From: an uncultured Candidatus Rokubacteria bacterium | GTDB lineage: Bacteria > Methylomirabilota > Methylomirabilia > Rokubacteriales > CSP1-6 | Assembly (NCBI GenBank): GCA_963754315.1 | Contig: CAVWFS010000020.1 | Span: forward strand, 93,217-157,216 | DNA length: 64,000 bases | Direction of reading: 5' to 3' | Part shown: positions 31,588-50,711 of the stretch, piece by piece | Layout: each line of letters begins with the position of its first letter | How positions within the stretch are numbered: the stretch's first letter is position 1 | Translations under genes and position numbers: made by a program | Notes under the pieces: model-generated | Databases searched by the model: none | What the model saw: the letters and a program-made list of their open reading frames with translations, nothing else | Told to the model about the DNA's origin: nothing

Positions 31588-32448
31588 CTACAACAGGCCG
31601 GCGCGCTCGGCGGCTTCCACGATCCCGCCGCCCGTGGTTACGTCGGCGCGCAGCTGGTGGGTTGCGTGTGCCTTGACCTCGTCGGAGGCGTGTCCCATCG
31701 CGAACGCGCAGCCGGCGACCTGGAACATCGGGACGTCGTTCACCCAGTCGCCCACACAGACGACGTCCTGCATGTCCACGCCGTGGTGCGCGGCGATCCA
31801 CTCGAGCGCGCTGCCCTTGGTGGCGCCGGGGGCGCGGACGATCATCGCCCAGTGCCCGAAGAACGCCTCCCGCTGCACCGGGAACGTCACCGGCGCCACG
31901 AGATCGGTCGCGTGGGCCAGCGCGGCGGCGAGCGCGGCAATCTCGTCCCTCGTCCCCACCGCGATGACACCCGCCGTGTCCGACCCGGGGTCCCAGTGCG
32001 GCGCCGCGGTCACGTCCTCGATGCGGCTGATGCAAGGCGTCCAGCCCCTGAGATACGCGGCGAACGGCACGCCCCGAGCGTCGTGGAAGATCTGATCGCG
32101 CCCGAGCACGAAGACGGCCGGGTTCCCATCCGCGAGCGCGGCCTGGAGCAGCCGGCCCGCGGGCGCGCCGAGCGCGCGAGACACGAGGTTCCGGTCCTCG
32201 CGCACCGCCACGATCGCGCTGCCGTCGAGGCAGCCGATCGGCCCATCGAGCTGGAGGCTCCGCGCCACCTCCCGCGTCCCGGAGTACATGCGCCCGGTGA
32301 CGATGGTGATGGCGATGCCACGGCGCTGCAGCTCGGCGATCGCGCGCCGGTCGGCCGCGTGAATCGCGCCGCTCCGATCGAGCAGGGTCCCGTCGAGGTC
32401 CGTGGCGAACAGCTTGTAGCGCGAGGGCGCCCGAGCAGGGGCTGTCAT
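31588..32448 (-). CDS. Cof-type HAD-IIB hydrolase
   Basis: DLDGTLL, VTGR, TKG, GDWVND. Confidence 0.9.
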   Translation of the reverse strand: MTAPARAPSRYKLFATDLDGTLLDRSGAIHAADRRAIAELQRRGIAITIVTGRMYSGTREVARSLQLDGPIGCLDGSAIVAVREDRNLVSRALGAPAGRLLQAALADGNPAVFVLGRDQIFHDARGVPFAAYLRGWTPCISRIEDVTAAPHWDPGSDTAGVIAVGTRDEIAALAAALAHATDLVAPVTFPVQREAFFGHWAMIVRAPGATKGSALEWIAAHHGVDMQDVVCVGDWVNDVPMFQVAGCAFAMGHASDEVKAHATHQLRADVTTGGGIVEAAERAGLL

Positions 32449-33452
32449 GGCGACCGTGGACGCCAGGGTACACCAGGATCGCGACCGGCGACTTCACGCC
32501 CGGGCTCCCTGCTGTCTCGCGTCCCGCGGCTCAAGGGCCTCGGCGCCGCGGGCCCCGGCACCACCAGGCGATCGAGCGGGACCTCGAGCGCGCGCGCCAG
32601 CCGGAGGAGCGCGCCGATGGTGGGATTCTGCTTGCCGTGCTCGAGGCCGCTGATGTACGTGCGGTCGAGGCCCGCCTCGTCGGCGAGCTGCTGCTGCTTC
32701 CAGCCCCGGGCCGAGCGCAGCTCCTGCAAGCAGCGCCCGAGGCGCTCGAAGTAATCCTCTGCCGTGCCCGGAGACTCCGAGGCGGCGGCGGTGAGCTGCC
32801 GCGCCTCGTGCACGCCGGCGCGCGCGTCCAGCGCGACCGCATCGACGTCGAATGTCGTCGCCGCCCGCGGGCGCCCCCGCAAGGCTGAGCCGCCGGCGAG
32901 GAGCCGGGGCGGTGGAGTCACGCGACGCAGGGCCGCCGCGACCGCGCTGAGCGCGGGCAAGTGTTCCGCCTGGGTGACGGAGAGCGCGACGAGCTCGGGC
33001 CGGCGACGGCCGACGAACTCCACGAGGTCGGCCGTGGGGGTGTTGGCGCCGAGGTAGTCGATCACCCAGCCGTCGATCAGGAAGGAGTCGGCGACCATTC
33101 GCAGGCCCACTGCGTGCGGCTCGCCTTCCACGCACGCCAGCACCGCCCGCCGGCCGGACACGGGTCGCACGGTCAGGCCCTCGCGCAGTCGCTCCATCTG
33201 GCTCAGCGTGATCTCGGTCGCCAGGTGCTCATCCGCCACCGAGAGCCGGCGTGCGCGCCACCGCGCGCCGATCTCTGCCTGGGCGGGGGCGAGAAGATGC
33301 AGATAGATCTGCTCCGTCGTCAGGCCGCGGGCCCGCGCCTGCTCGACGACGCCGTCGGCGCCCGGAGCGTCGCCCCGCAGCAGCGCGTCGAGGTATCGCC
33401 GGTCGAGTGCCCCACGGCCATTCGTCCTGCCTCTTCCGTCTCGGCGTCTCAT
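32445..33452 (-). CDS. cobalamin-binding photoreceptor-like regulator with C-terminal XRE HTH (copy 1)
   Basis: WRARRLSVADEHLAT and EGEPHAVG (CarH W-x9-EH and ExH motifs); C-terminal LRSARGWKQQQLADEAGLDRTYISGLEHGKQNPT. Confidence 0.9.
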   Translation of the reverse strand: MRRRDGRGRTNGRGALDRRYLDALLRGDAPGADGVVEQARARGLTTEQIYLHLLAPAQAEIGARWRARRLSVADEHLATEITLSQMERLREGLTVRPVSGRRAVLACVEGEPHAVGLRMVADSFLIDGWVIDYLGANTPTADLVEFVGRRRPELVALSVTQAEHLPALSAVAAALRRVTPPPRLLAGGSALRGRPRAATTFDVDAVALDARAGVHEARQLTAAASESPGTAEDYFERLGRCLQELRSARGWKQQQLADEAGLDRTYISGLEHGKQNPTIGALLRLARALEVPLDRLVVPGPAAPRPLSRGTRDSREPGREVAGRDPGVPWRPRSP

Positions 33453-33530
33453 GGGTTCACCTCGCTGTCGATTATGTGCGACGGGCTCCCGCTTCCGTTC
33501 ACGCGTGCTCCAACAGAGTCGTTCAGAGTC

Positions 33531-33585
33531 GTTGTAGTTTATATTTGACATATATAGTTATCAGTGTAGTGTATATACAACTCAG
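33531..33585. promoter_or_regulatory. AT-rich divergent promoter/operator region 1
   Basis: TTGACA at 33545-33550; direct repeat TGTAGT(T/G)TATAT at 33533 and 33565; flanking GTTGTA...TACAAC. Confidence 0.72.
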
Positions 33586-33619
33586 ATCGATGTGATCAGA
33601 GAACAAGGAGGAGGAACCG

Positions 33620-34114
33620 ATGCGCAGCATGCCGTTCATTCGTCTCGCCGTCGCCGTCACCACTCTGGGTCTGGTCTTCGGATCCGTTACCCCCGCTCGG
33701 ACCGCGGACGATCGGAAGGACATCGTCGATACGGCCGTCCAGGCCGGCAGCTTCACGACGCTGGCCAAGGCCCTCACCGCCGCCGGGCTCGTGGAGACCC
33801 TGAAGGGGCCCGGGCCGTTCACCGTGTTCGCGCCCACGGACGCAGCCTTCGCGAAGCTGCCCGCGGGCATCCTGGATGGCCTCCTCGCCGACAAGGCGAA
33901 GCTCACCCAGGTGCTCACCTATCACGTGGTCCCCGGCACCGTCATGGCCGCCGACGTGGTCAAGCTCTCGAGCGCCAAGACGGTCCAGGGTCAGAGCGTG
34001 AAGATCACCACGAGCGGAGGCGTGAAGGTGGACAACGCCAACGTCGTGAAGACCGATGTCATCGCCACCAACGGCGTGATCCACGTCATCGACGCCGTGA
34101 TCCTTCCGCAATAA
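33620..34114 (+). CDS. fasciclin domain protein (secreted)
   Basis: [38 protein letters not shown]. Confidence 0.95.
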
Positions 34115-49145: not shown

Positions 49146-49150
49146 GCGCC

Positions 49151-49400
49151 ATGGCGATCACGCTCTTCCCCTTCGCCGACTACTGGTGGCTGTACGCCGC
49201 CTTCACCGGCGGCGTGCTGGTCCTGCTGGCGGTCGATCTCGGGGTCCTCGTCCTGGTCTTCGTGGGCGTCAAAATGGCGTGGCTCAACGACCTCTGGGCG
49301 GGCAAGTTCCCGATCACGTGGTCGCTGGGCATCATCGGCACGCTGATCGGCGCCTCCGTCGTGCTGTCGCTCGTCGTCGCTGCGCAGCGCCCCGCCCCGA
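49151..49400 (+). pseudogene. TerC/Alx family membrane protein with a large internal deletion
   Basis: N-terminal LFPFADYWWLY...LLAVDLGV joined directly to C-terminal LVLVFVGVKM...SLGII...ASVVLSL. Confidence 0.72.
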
Positions 49401-49404
49401 AACC

Positions 49405-49741
49405 GTCCCGCGCGGCGGGCGCGCTCGACCAGCTCGCCGAGCAGGGGCCCGCCCGCTCCACGCAACACACACGCGCGCCCCTGCCCGCGGACACCGCGAT
49501 ACGGCGGAGCATCGCGCGCCACCTCGAACGCGCAGCGCGCGTCGCGCTCGAGGTGGTGGACAACGCGCGCGCGCGGACGGCTCGCGCACCAGAGCGCGCC
49601 CTCGCGATAGAGGAACCAGAGCGAGAGCACGAGCGGCGATCCCGACCCCGTGAGGCAGGCCAGCCGCACCGGCACCACCGTGTCGCGCAGGTGGCGCTCG
49701 ACCTGCTCGAAGGCGTAAGGTCCGCTGACAGGAAAGTCCAT
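49405..49741 (-). pseudogene. pyridoxamine 5'-phosphate oxidase family protein, 3'-truncated
   Basis: PVRLAC...PLVLSLWF...CAFEVARDAPPYRGVRGQG; similarity is lost after ELVER. Confidence 0.72.
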
Positions 49742-50711
49742 GGACACGACGCAGTCTAGCGCTCCAGACCGGATCCGGCTCGGCGTCTCGTCGTGCCTGC
49801 TCGGCGAGGCCGTGCGCTACGACGGCGGCCACAAGCAGGATCGGTTCCTCACCGACGTGCTCGGCCGCTACGTCGAATGGGTGCCGGTGTGCCCGGAGGT
49901 CGAGATCGGCCTCAGCATTCCCCGGGACACGCTGCGACTGGTGGGAAGCCCGAGAGGCCCCGCGCCTCGTCCAGGAAAAGACGGGCGAGGACCTGACCGC
50001 GCGGATGCAGCGATATGCCGAGGATCGCGTGCGCGCGCTCGCCGAGCTCGACCTGGACGGCTATGTGCTCAAGCGCGCCTCGCCGTCATGCGGGCTCTTC
50101 CGCGTCCGGGTCTACCGGGACAACGGCATCCCCGCCGCCGACGGCCGGGGCCTCTTCGCGGCCGCGCTCACCACCTCCCTTCCGGCCCTGCCCGTCGAGG
50201 AGGAGGGGCGGCTCACCGACCCCGCGATCAGGGAGAACTTCATCGAGCGCGTCTTCCTCGCCGCCGCTGGCGCGCCTTCGTCGCCCCCGCCCCCGACCGC
50301 GCGACCTCGTGGCCTTCCACGCCGCGCACAAGTTCGCCGTCCTGGCGCACAGCCCCGCGCACTACGCCCGCCTGGGCCGGATGGTCGCCGCCACCGGACG
50401 TGTGCTCACTCGCGCGCAGCTCGAGCGCCTATCACGCCCTGCTCATGGAGGCCTTCGCCGTGCGTGCCACGCGCGGACGCCACGCGAACGTCCTCCAGCA
50501 CGCAGCCGGCTACTTCAAGCGTGACCTGGCCGCGGACGAGCGGGCCGAGCTCGTCGAGGTCATCGACGAGTACCGTCGCGGCCTCGTGCCGCTCGTCGTG
50601 CCGCTGACGCTCGTCAAGCACCACGTCCGGCGGCTGCGCGTGCCCTATCTGGCCGACCAGATGTACCTCAGCCCACATCCGAAGGAGCTAATGCTCCGGA
50701 ATCACGTGTGA
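49740..50711 (+). CDS. DUF523 (TudS-like) + DUF1722 protein, YbgA-like (frameshifts)
   Basis: GVSSCLLGEAVRYDGGH, PVCPEVEIG, SPSCG, PVEEEGRL, RENFIERVF, YLSPHPKELMLRNHV. Confidence 0.9.
   Translation: MDTTQSSAPDRIRLGVSSCLLGEAVRYDGGHKQDRFLTDVLGRYVEWVPVCPEVEIGLSIPRDTLRLVGSPRGPAPRPGKDGRGPDRADAAICRGSRARARRARPGRLCAQARLAVMRALPRPGLPGQRHPRRRRPGPLRGRAHHLPSGPARRGGGAAHRPRDQGELHRARLPRRRWRAFVAPAPDRATSWPSTPRTSSPSWRTAPRTTPAWAGWSPPPDVCSLARSSSAYHALLMEAFAVRATRGRHANVLQHAAGYFKRDLAADERAELVEVIDEYRRGLVPLVVPLTLVKHHVRRLRVPYLADQMYLSPHPKELMLRNHV

What the first reader, a model, noticed from the sequence alone, without database searches (positions are those of the whole stretch)
32445..50711. Duplicated B12-photosensor/XRE regulators controlling a two-part light-protection island
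Seen: two paralogous genes (32445-33452 and 44924-45839) keep the CarH photosensor motifs W-x9-EH and ExH, but their DNA-binding domain is a C-terminal XRE HTH. Each is divergent from an operon. Operon 1 is fasciclin, photolyase, SRPBCC, carotenoid enzymes and a cytochrome. Operon 2 is a SOUL remnant, SDR-DUF2867, TIGR01777 and DUF523/DUF1722. Established: CarH/LitR use an N-terminal MerR HTH, AerR/PpaA have no HTH, and these cargo families are typical of CarH/LitR light regulons. Inference: this is an adenosylcobalamin light switch with a reversed, non-MerR architecture. I do not recall this architecture being characterised.
Basis: partly seen in the sequence, partly recalled or inferred. Interest (0 to 1): 0.85.

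Follow-up and report, generated by a model that had tools for sequence, protein, structure and literature searches.

The report
B12 light switch, controller-type DNA grip
Two related genes here join a vitamin-B12 module carrying the known light-sensing signature to a DNA-binding domain like that of restriction-modification controller proteins, and paired palindromes lie over the promoter of the neighbouring sun-protection genes, so they likely form an untested kind of light-released gene switch found in many uncultured bacterial phyla.

Summary
Mostly confirmed. Regulator 1 (32445-33452) is intact: B12-binding_2, B12-binding, C-terminal HTH_3, with every published photoreceptor motif. Regulator 2 (44924-45839) is real but carries 9 single-base indels, probably assembly errors; a close relative holds both genes intact in the same order. 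The architecture occurs at 68 GTDB loci in many phyla. Photolyase, carotenoid, RudS, fasciclin or TIGR01777 genes lie within 10 kb at 32 of 42 loci outside one Bdellovibrionota clade, but at 1 of 26 inside it. Added here: the HTH is controller-protein-like (DRTY helix), and an 18-bp palindrome, TGT-N12-ACA, occurs in 24 of 35 upstream regions (shuffles: 2.2). It comes in pairs about 31-32 bp apart, over the -35 and -10 positions, and matches the C.Esp1396I operator except at the one base read by a residue that differs. It is unlike CarH's direct repeats. The window's pair is the best site in its 6.5-Mb genome. Likely a dark-bound, adenosylcobalamin-held repressor released by light; nothing is shown at the bench. 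No characterisation found in ten literature searches. This scan noted the family three times before on other DNA.

The parts
32445..33452 (-). Regulator 1: CarH-type B12 module (four-helix cap plus Rossmann fold) fused to a C-terminal controller-protein-like XRE HTH; intact; last ~35 aa not conserved
33466..33483 (.). Third, weaker palindrome just upstream of regulator 1 (candidate autoregulatory site)
   Evidence: 10.9 bits; similar sites in L001 and L002
33533..33550 (.). Operator palindrome A (TGT-N12-ACA); its last six bases are a perfect TTGACA -35 hexamer facing operon 1
   Evidence: 19.1 bits with all Rokubacteria-like rows left out of the matrix; top site of the genome
33565..33582 (.). 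Operator palindrome B, 32 bp from A; covers the candidate -10 hexamer at 33567-33572 (3 of 6 consensus only)
   Evidence: not called by the promoter scan
33620..34114 (+). Fasciclin-domain protein, first gene of operon 1
34188..35573 (+). DNA photolyase
35593..36074 (+). SRPBCC-like protein (frameshifted as assembled; ends approximate)
36076..37548 (+). Aldehyde dehydrogenase (frameshifted; ends approximate)
37545..38940 (+). CrtI-family carotenoid desaturase/oxidase, first copy (frameshifted; ends approximate)
   Evidence: TIGR02734 below cut-off in the L003 orthologue
38944..39740 (+). Acyltransferase (frameshifted; ends approximate)
39742..40880 (+). GT2 glycosyltransferase, nearest profiles HpnB/CruG (frameshifted; ends approximate)
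40918..42460 (+). CrtI-family phytoene desaturase, second copy (frameshifted; ends approximate)
   Evidence: TIGR02734 above cut-off in the L003 orthologue
42448..42980 (+). 177-aa protein of unknown family (one frameshift)
42980..44913 (+). Multi-domain c-type cytochrome, last gene of operon 1 (frameshifted; start approximate)
44924..45839 (-). Regulator 2, paralogue of regulator 1 (its L003 orthologue is 202/290 identical to regulator 1); 9 one-base indels as assembled
45873..45923 (.). Weaker operator pair upstream of operon 2; first site one base longer than in L003, where the pair scores 17 and 11 bits at 32 bp
45964..46261 (+). Start of a small ORF joined to a SOUL heme-binding gene fragment; about 1.8 kb present in L003 is missing
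46261..47769 (+). SDR/NmrA-like oxidoreductase with DUF2867; intact
47766..49145 (+). SRPBCC-TIGR01777 (YfcH-like) fusion; intact
49151..49430 (+). TerC/Alx fragment
49410..49747 (-). PPOX-class oxidoreductase on the opposite strand
49740..50711 (+). DUF523-DUF1722 = RudS-type tRNA 4-thiouridine desulfidase (frameshifted)
   Evidence: PMC11417400 passages

Best explanation
The two proteins are likely one-component, light-released repressors: a CarH-type module is predicted to bind adenosylcobalamin, and a C-terminal controller-protein-like HTH is predicted to bind the 18-bp palindromes that cover the promoter of the divergent photoprotection operon. SHOWN in sequence: domain order, all cofactor motifs, a conserved TGT-N12-ACA palindrome in pairs about three helical turns apart over the -35 and -10 positions, and light-stress cargo. 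INFERRED: in the dark AdoB12 holds head-to-tail dimers and probably a tetramer; the oligomer brings the weakly self-pairing HTH domains together so that two HTH pairs sit on the two palindromes and block RNA polymerase; green or blue light breaks the Co-C bond, the oligomer falls apart, and photolyase, carotenoid-modifying enzymes, RudS and the SDR genes are transcribed. A third site likely gives autoregulation. Regulator 2 likely does the same for operon 2, and the two likely cross-regulate because their recognition helices are the same.
For: Sensor: GxxW, EH, GxxH and GxxxP, the signature validated by spectroscopy in PMC11796333, are all in regulator 1; E75, H76 and H113 are kept in 64 of 64 aligned proteins, W65 in 61. 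Best PDB sequence and fold matches are CtMerR, the photocobilins and TtCarH, ahead of methyltransferase corrinoid proteins. CtMerR also has Arg after the Trp and still goes from tetramer to monomer in light. A homodimer model scored 0.60 against a best control of 0.00 (mark reached by 20 of 30 solved homo-pairs and 1 of 23 single chains; runs agree in at least 86% of contacts; pLDDT at least 82), with a head-to-tail cap/Rossmann interface; this may be memory of CarH. DNA side: top PDB hits of the HTH are C.AhdI, C.BclI and C.Esp1396I. TGT-N12-ACA is in 24 of 35 de-duplicated upstream regions against 2.2 in shuffles (max 7), with a peak at spacer 12; the two best sites are 30-35 bp apart in 15 of 35 (null 2.6, max 8). 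Outside the training regions the best pair beats all 20 shuffles in 20 of 42 loci, against 1 of 26 in the orphan clade, and the strongest lie ahead of the light operons (L005, L006, L007, L011-13, L016, L030, L042). The window's pair is the top site among 6.5 million positions with close relatives left out of the matrix. The motif's top base agrees with 6 of the 7 symmetric positions that PMC3488213 names for the C.Esp1396I operator; the seventh is read by R46, which is Q in 63 of 64 family members. Cargo: 33 of 68 loci carry light-regulon genes, photolyase in 14. Host has a PduO-type adenosyltransferase and two methylmalonyl-CoA mutases.
Against: No binding, spectrum or expression data. Regulator 1 lacks the equivalents of TtCarH His132 (Arg; His in 46 of 64 relatives), Arg176 (Pro) and Asp201 (Asn); TtCarH H132A mostly stays tetrameric after light (PMC10442372), and two signature-positive proteins did not change oligomer in light. 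In the 26-locus Bdellovibrionota-type clade only 1 locus has light genes within 10 kb, and no strong site lay within 1.5 kb of 15 photolyase-family matches in 5 such genomes. Part of the motif coincides with the TTGACA -35 box, which inflates its conservation. The promoter scan called no promoter in either intergenic region. The motif width was chosen after seeing it by eye. Regulator 2 and its sites are damaged in this assembly. No CobA/BtuR was found in the genome.
Confidence: 0.8

Rival explanations
1. The protein binds the same operators but reports B12 supply (or needs no B12, like CarA) rather than light; light genes would then be induced by B12 shortage or by an unknown antirepressor.
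For: Apo-CarH also binds DNA poorly (PMC8156234), so cofactor shortage would release the operon. The orphan clade has no light cargo. His132 and Arg176 equivalents are absent.
Against: CarA lacks Wx9EH whereas this family keeps it in 62 of 68 loci. AdoCbl bound to signature-positive domains was photolysed in all four proteins tested. The cargo is photolyase, carotenoid and RudS genes, not B12 uptake or synthesis, apart from CbiX at 3 loci.
Confidence: 0.09
2. Like true controller proteins it is a dual activator/repressor, or light turns DNA binding on: photolysis frees the HTH domains to pair and activate the operon.
For: C proteins activate from a distal site and repress from a proximal one (PMC2691842 passages). 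In the dimer model the HTH domains are not part of the confident interface.
Against: Both sites overlap the core promoter; the -35 hexamer lies inside site A in most divergent loci, which fits occlusion. C-protein double sites are adjacent within 35 bp, not 31-32 bp apart centre to centre.
Confidence: 0.06
3. The family reading holds, but in this genome the island is decaying: regulator 2 and most cargo are pseudogenes.
For: About 170 one-base indels, and larger losses in SOUL and TerC relative to L003. The island is accessory: found in 1 of 60 relatives.
Against: Indels are insertion-biased and confined to one stretch with no excess of substitutions; independent short-read contigs lack 6 of the 8 regulator-2 insertions.
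Confidence: 0.12

Closest known systems
CarH / class I LitR (Thermus thermophilus, Myxococcus xanthus, Bacillus megaterium)
   Same: Four-helix cap plus Rossmann B12 module, Wx9EH and ExHx2G..S..GG motifs, predicted head-to-tail dimer, operator over a sigma-A promoter, photolyase and carotenoid cargo.
   Different: DNA-binding domain is a C-terminal XRE HTH, not an N-terminal MerR winged helix; operator is paired 18-bp palindromes, not 11-bp direct repeats (1 of 35 regions); His132, Arg176 and Asp201 equivalents differ in regulator 1; NCBIfam CarH score 64.8 against a cut-off of 400.
CtMerR of Chloracidobacterium thermophilum (PDB 8JBS/8JBT)
   Same: Best sequence match in PDB (E 2e-24); Arg after the Trp; tetramer-to-monomer light switch shown (PMC11796333).
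   Different: Its DNA-binding domain is N-terminal; no XRE domain.
Restriction-modification controller proteins (C.Esp1396I, C.AhdI, C.BclI)
   Same: HTH with DRTYISG recognition helix; 18-bp palindrome with outer TG/CA, GA/TC and central TATA.
   Different: Fused to a sensor; R46 replaced by Q; sites three turns apart rather than adjacent; no restriction-modification genes recur in the neighbourhoods.
Photocobilins (8J2W-Y) and AerR/PpaA
   Same: Same light-responsive B12 module placed at the N-terminus or alone.
   Different: They carry a biliverdin-binding globin or enzyme, or no DNA-binding domain (AerR: recalled; weak hit 7te2).

Membership tests
CarH / class I LitR | [quoted passage not shown] | tested here: met
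CarH / class I LitR | Wx9EH plus ExHx2Gx41SxV/Tx22-27GG (PMC8156234) | tested here: met
CarH / class I LitR | N-terminal MerR winged-helix domain | tested here: not met
   C-terminal HTH_3 only; CarH equivalog far below cut-off
CarH / class I LitR | Operator of tandem 11-bp direct repeats | tested here: not met
   1 of 35 upstream regions, null 0.4; palindrome in 24 of 35
CarH / class I LitR | His after the Trp for the bis-His light state | tested here: not met
   Arg in both window paralogues; His in 46 of 64 relatives
CarH / class I LitR | AdoB12-dependent dark tetramer that light disassembles | not testable with these tools
   only a cofactor-free dimer model
Light-responsive cobalamin-binding domains (SignatureFinder set) | GxxW, EH, GxxH, GxxxP | tested here: met
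   G62/W65, E75/H76, G110/H113, G135/P139; all four in 51 of 68 loci
Light-responsive cobalamin-binding domains (SignatureFinder set) | Spectral change of bound AdoCbl in green light | not testable with these tools
   needs protein
R-M controller (C) proteins | XRE HTH with DRTY/HRTY recognition helix | tested here: met
R-M controller (C) proteins | C-box palindrome TG-x2-GAC-TATA-GTC-x2-CA | tested here: inconclusive
   6 of 7 symmetric positions agree; the R46-read position does not
R-M controller (C) proteins | Small stand-alone protein upstream of an endonuclease gene | tested here: not met
   fused, ~300 aa; no R-M family among recurring neighbours
Class II LitR / CarA (B12-independent) | Loss of the Rossmann B12 domain or of Wx9EH | tested here: not met
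   both kept
Methyltransferase corrinoid proteins (MtbC-like, the database label) | No Wx9EH cap motif, no DNA-binding domain, NCBIfam cut-off reached | tested here: not met
   scores 22-37 against cut-offs 215-450

The most novel reading that the evidence does not exclude
A second, independently built family of B12 photoreceptor transcription factors: the CarH light module was grafted onto a restriction-modification-controller-type HTH, kept a C-box-like palindromic code, and uses a light-labile oligomer to bridge palindromes three DNA turns apart. It would be the main light switch of uncultured lineages (SAR202, Rokubacteria, freshwater Bdellovibrionota and others), and a compact green-light repressor with a known 18-bp operator for optogenetics.
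Probability: 0.55. Interest if true: 0.72.

Novelty: new variant of a known kind. Interest (0 to 1): 0.6.

Why it matters
The B12 photoreceptor transcription factors described in the papers read here use an N-terminal domain, and TtCarH reads direct repeats. This family shows that the sensor can drive a dimer-requiring, palindrome-binding domain from the other end, which needs a different geometry of switching. The operator found here makes the family testable at once and lets light regulons be read out of genomes of uncultured soil, lake and ocean bacteria not thought of as light-sensing. Databases label these proteins as methanogenic corrinoid/XRE or MerR proteins, so they are hidden by misannotation. 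The logic (B12, light, derepression of photolyase and carotenoid genes) is known, which caps the surprise.

Tried and rejected
Mobility marks: no tRNA in the window, no direct or inverted repeat of 12 bp or more between the two flanks; the island is called accessory only because flanks differ in L001/L003 and 1 of 60 relatives has it. CarH-type direct repeats: rejected. Sigma-70 scan: nothing called. Distal regulon of the orphan clade: no strong site near 15 photolyase-family matches in 5 genomes, with only 1.5-kb flanks; a related TG-N14-CA motif in 31-bp steps sits upstream of those regulators, but kinship could explain it. Wider regulon in the own genome: no second strong pair. Expression: the one RNA run held 5% of the words and showed only short fasciclin-like pieces, none on the regulator; no evidence either way. 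The tree is the quick one, with long-branch warnings; no claim on origin or transfer rests on it. The 50%-cluster census never ran, so family size rests on 176 and 525 hits among capped candidates, which may include partial matches. Six of the 74 loci (L068-L072, L074) matched one domain only and were dropped; five more (L043, L054, L060, L067, L073) were left out of the 64-row alignment as truncated. Two reviews or structure papers asked for by id were not held. Figures 9 and S9 of PMC11796333 could not be seen and may include a CBD-HTH cluster of this kind.
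Full report
OBSERVATION. Regulator 1 (32445-33452, minus) translates to 335 aa with B12-binding_2, B12-binding and HTH_3 in that order. An AlphaFold2 model (pLDDT 86.8, pTM 0.68) shows a four-helix cap, a Rossmann fold, a loose linker near 226-228 and a five-helix HTH; the last 35 residues are disordered. Regulator 2 has the stated ends, but 8 insertions and 1 deletion of single bases break it against its orthologue in L003. 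L001 and L003, two views of one contig whose title reads Candidatus Rokuibacteriota, hold the same island at 88-92% identity with both regulators intact. That genome is in the same GTDB family as the window's and is the only one of 60 relatives with a match. Indels cluster at 36-46 kb without extra substitutions, and short-read contigs from other runs lack 6 of the 8 inserted bases, so assembly error is the likely cause.

CARGO. Read through the intact relative: fasciclin, photolyase, SRPBCC-like, aldehyde dehydrogenase, two CrtI-family enzymes, acyltransferase, GT2, an unknown and a cytochrome c; then SOUL, SDR-DUF2867, SRPBCC-TIGR01777, TerC and DUF523-DUF1722. The last is RudS, which removes the UV-sensitive 4-thiouridine from tRNA and is often in LitR-controlled operons (PMC11417400, passages). 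The desaturase/aldehyde dehydrogenase/GT2/acyltransferase set resembles the staphyloxanthin-type tailoring pathway (recalled, not tested); synthase genes lie elsewhere.

FAMILY. Protein searches gave 176 hits and 525 hits; most listed rows carry all three Pfam domains. A GTDB scan returned 74 loci, 68 kept as family members (62 with the cap motif found in the called ORF), with titles from Rokubacteria/Methylomirabilota, Chloroflexota (SAR202), Bdellovibrionota, Armatimonadota, Bipolaricaulota, Acidobacteriota, Myxococcota, Planctomycetota and others. Some are kin or share a genome (L001/L003, L006/L013, L063/L073). Within 10 kb, 33 of 68 carry a light-regulon gene: TIGR01777/SRPBCC 18, photolyase 14, SDR-DUF2867 12, RudS 10, fasciclin 9, crtI 7, DUF1365/CFA 5, crtB 4. 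The split is 32 of 42 outside and 1 of 26 inside one shallow clade (99% SH-aLRT for its 24 aligned rows) that sits between a DnaJ-like gene and cmoB/apaG.

SENSOR. All four signature motifs of PMC11796333 (sections 8, 10, 11, passages and supplement search read) are present, as are both motifs that PMC8156234 (passages) says define CarH homologues. Best PDB matches by sequence and fold are CtMerR, photocobilins and TtCarH. Against: the His132, Arg176 and Asp201 equivalents are Arg, Pro and Asn. TtCarH H132A mostly stays a tetramer (PMC10442372, passages), but CtMerR, with Arg there, does monomerise. The genome encodes a PduO-type adenosyltransferase and two AdoB12 mutases, no CobA, and no MerR-type CarH among five B12-binding_2 matches.

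DNA-BINDING DOMAIN AND OPERATOR. The HTH matches C.AhdI, C.BclI and C.Esp1396I best, sharing LDRTYISG with the last. Gibbs sampling of 35 de-duplicated upstream regions found TGTnGAaTATAtTcnACA at 10.4 per sequence against 6.6-6.9 in block shuffles. Plain TGT-N12-ACA is in 24 of 35 (null mean 2.2, max 7), CarH-type 11-bp repeats in 1. The two best sites are 30-35 bp apart in 15 of 35 (null 2.6, max 8). With the training regions masked, 20 of 42 loci still hold a pair that beats 20 of 20 shuffles, against 1 of 26 in the orphan clade; several of the 20 are weak, and the strong ones precede the light operons, for example L005, L006, L007, L011-13, L016, L030 and L042. In the window, sites at 33533-33550 and 33565-33582 are the best single site and best pair of the 6.5-Mb genome with a matrix built without close relatives. 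Site A ends in TTGACA; a 16-bp spacer puts a weak -10 inside site B, which the promoter scan does not accept. PMC3488213 (passages) describes an 18-bp operator with outer TG read by R35, GAC/GTC read by T36 and R46, and a central TATA. The family keeps R (64 of 64) and has Q for R46 (63 of 64); the motif agrees at 6 of 7 symmetric positions and differs at the R46 position. The OR oligonucleotide printed in PMC3758141 fits the right half of the motif in the same way.

MECHANISM. Dark, AdoB12-held oligomer; two HTH pairs on two palindromes on one face of the DNA; polymerase blocked; light releases. Tetramer, polarity and light dependence are inferred from CarH and CtMerR.

NOVELTY. Ten full-text searches (of these 13, 14, 18, 38, 90 and 95 aimed at the architecture) found no description of a B12-XRE regulator; the library lacks most subscription papers. 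PMC11796333 states that light-responsive domains fuse to HTH and other outputs at both ends, without 'XRE' in text or supplement; its network figures were not visible. PMC8717448 (passages) lists MerR, ANTAR and HTH_17 fusions only. PMC3532121 (passages) counts 35 of 37 proteobacterial B12 factors as MerR. Earlier notes of this scan reached the same reading on three other genomes; I had formed mine before, and they are not independent support.

VERDICT. A real, widespread and apparently uncharacterised variant of the CarH light switch, with its own operator code. Interest 0.6.

Noticed in passing
L006:2275-3126 and L063:7408-8214: Heliorhodopsin genes beside the regulon: divergent from the strongest operator pair in L006 (whose promoter faces the other way) and co-oriented behind SDR-DUF2867 in L063. 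Possible light control of a rhodopsin of open function.
   Followed up: partly
L047:3432-7751 and L067:2849-7302: crtI, crtB, lycopene cyclase and, in L047, a beta-carotene 15,15'-dioxygenase next to the regulator: a retinal-synthesis cluster in Bdellovibrionota-type genomes.
   Followed up: no
L011:12611-13792 (also L006, L012, L013, L052, L056, L057): A 394-aa protein with no Pfam or NCBIfam match sits downstream of operator sites in 7 SAR202-type loci; candidate new light-stress gene.
   Followed up: partly
L066:9624-10682: A canonical MerR-type CarH lies in the same cluster as the XRE-type regulator.
   Followed up: no
L019-L048 (orphan clade), upstream of the regulator: Recognition helix is DRAY instead of DRTY; TG-N14-CA-like sites recur in 31-bp steps toward a DnaJ-like/STM3941 gene.
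   Followed up: partly
L052, L056, L064: Y replaces W in the Wx9EH motif in three SAR202-type proteins that keep strong operator sites.
   Followed up: no
L006:10597-11981; L014/L015/L066; L024:13186-13605: Riboflavin genes ribB/ribA-like, CbiX chelatase and a pyrimidine-dimer glycosylase occur in or near the clusters.
   Followed up: no
window:50982-56477: Right of the island, three lower-GC genes on the minus strand share a short C-terminal GGGW/I-I-x-G-K-x-x-x-x-PP segment (the 577- and 453-aa ORFs), followed by a peroxidase-like 563-aa ORF (labels by eye).
   Followed up: no
window:29217-32448: Left flank: monomeric isocitrate dehydrogenase-like gene (by eye) and a HAD hydrolase whose start overlaps the stop of regulator 1.
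   Followed up: no
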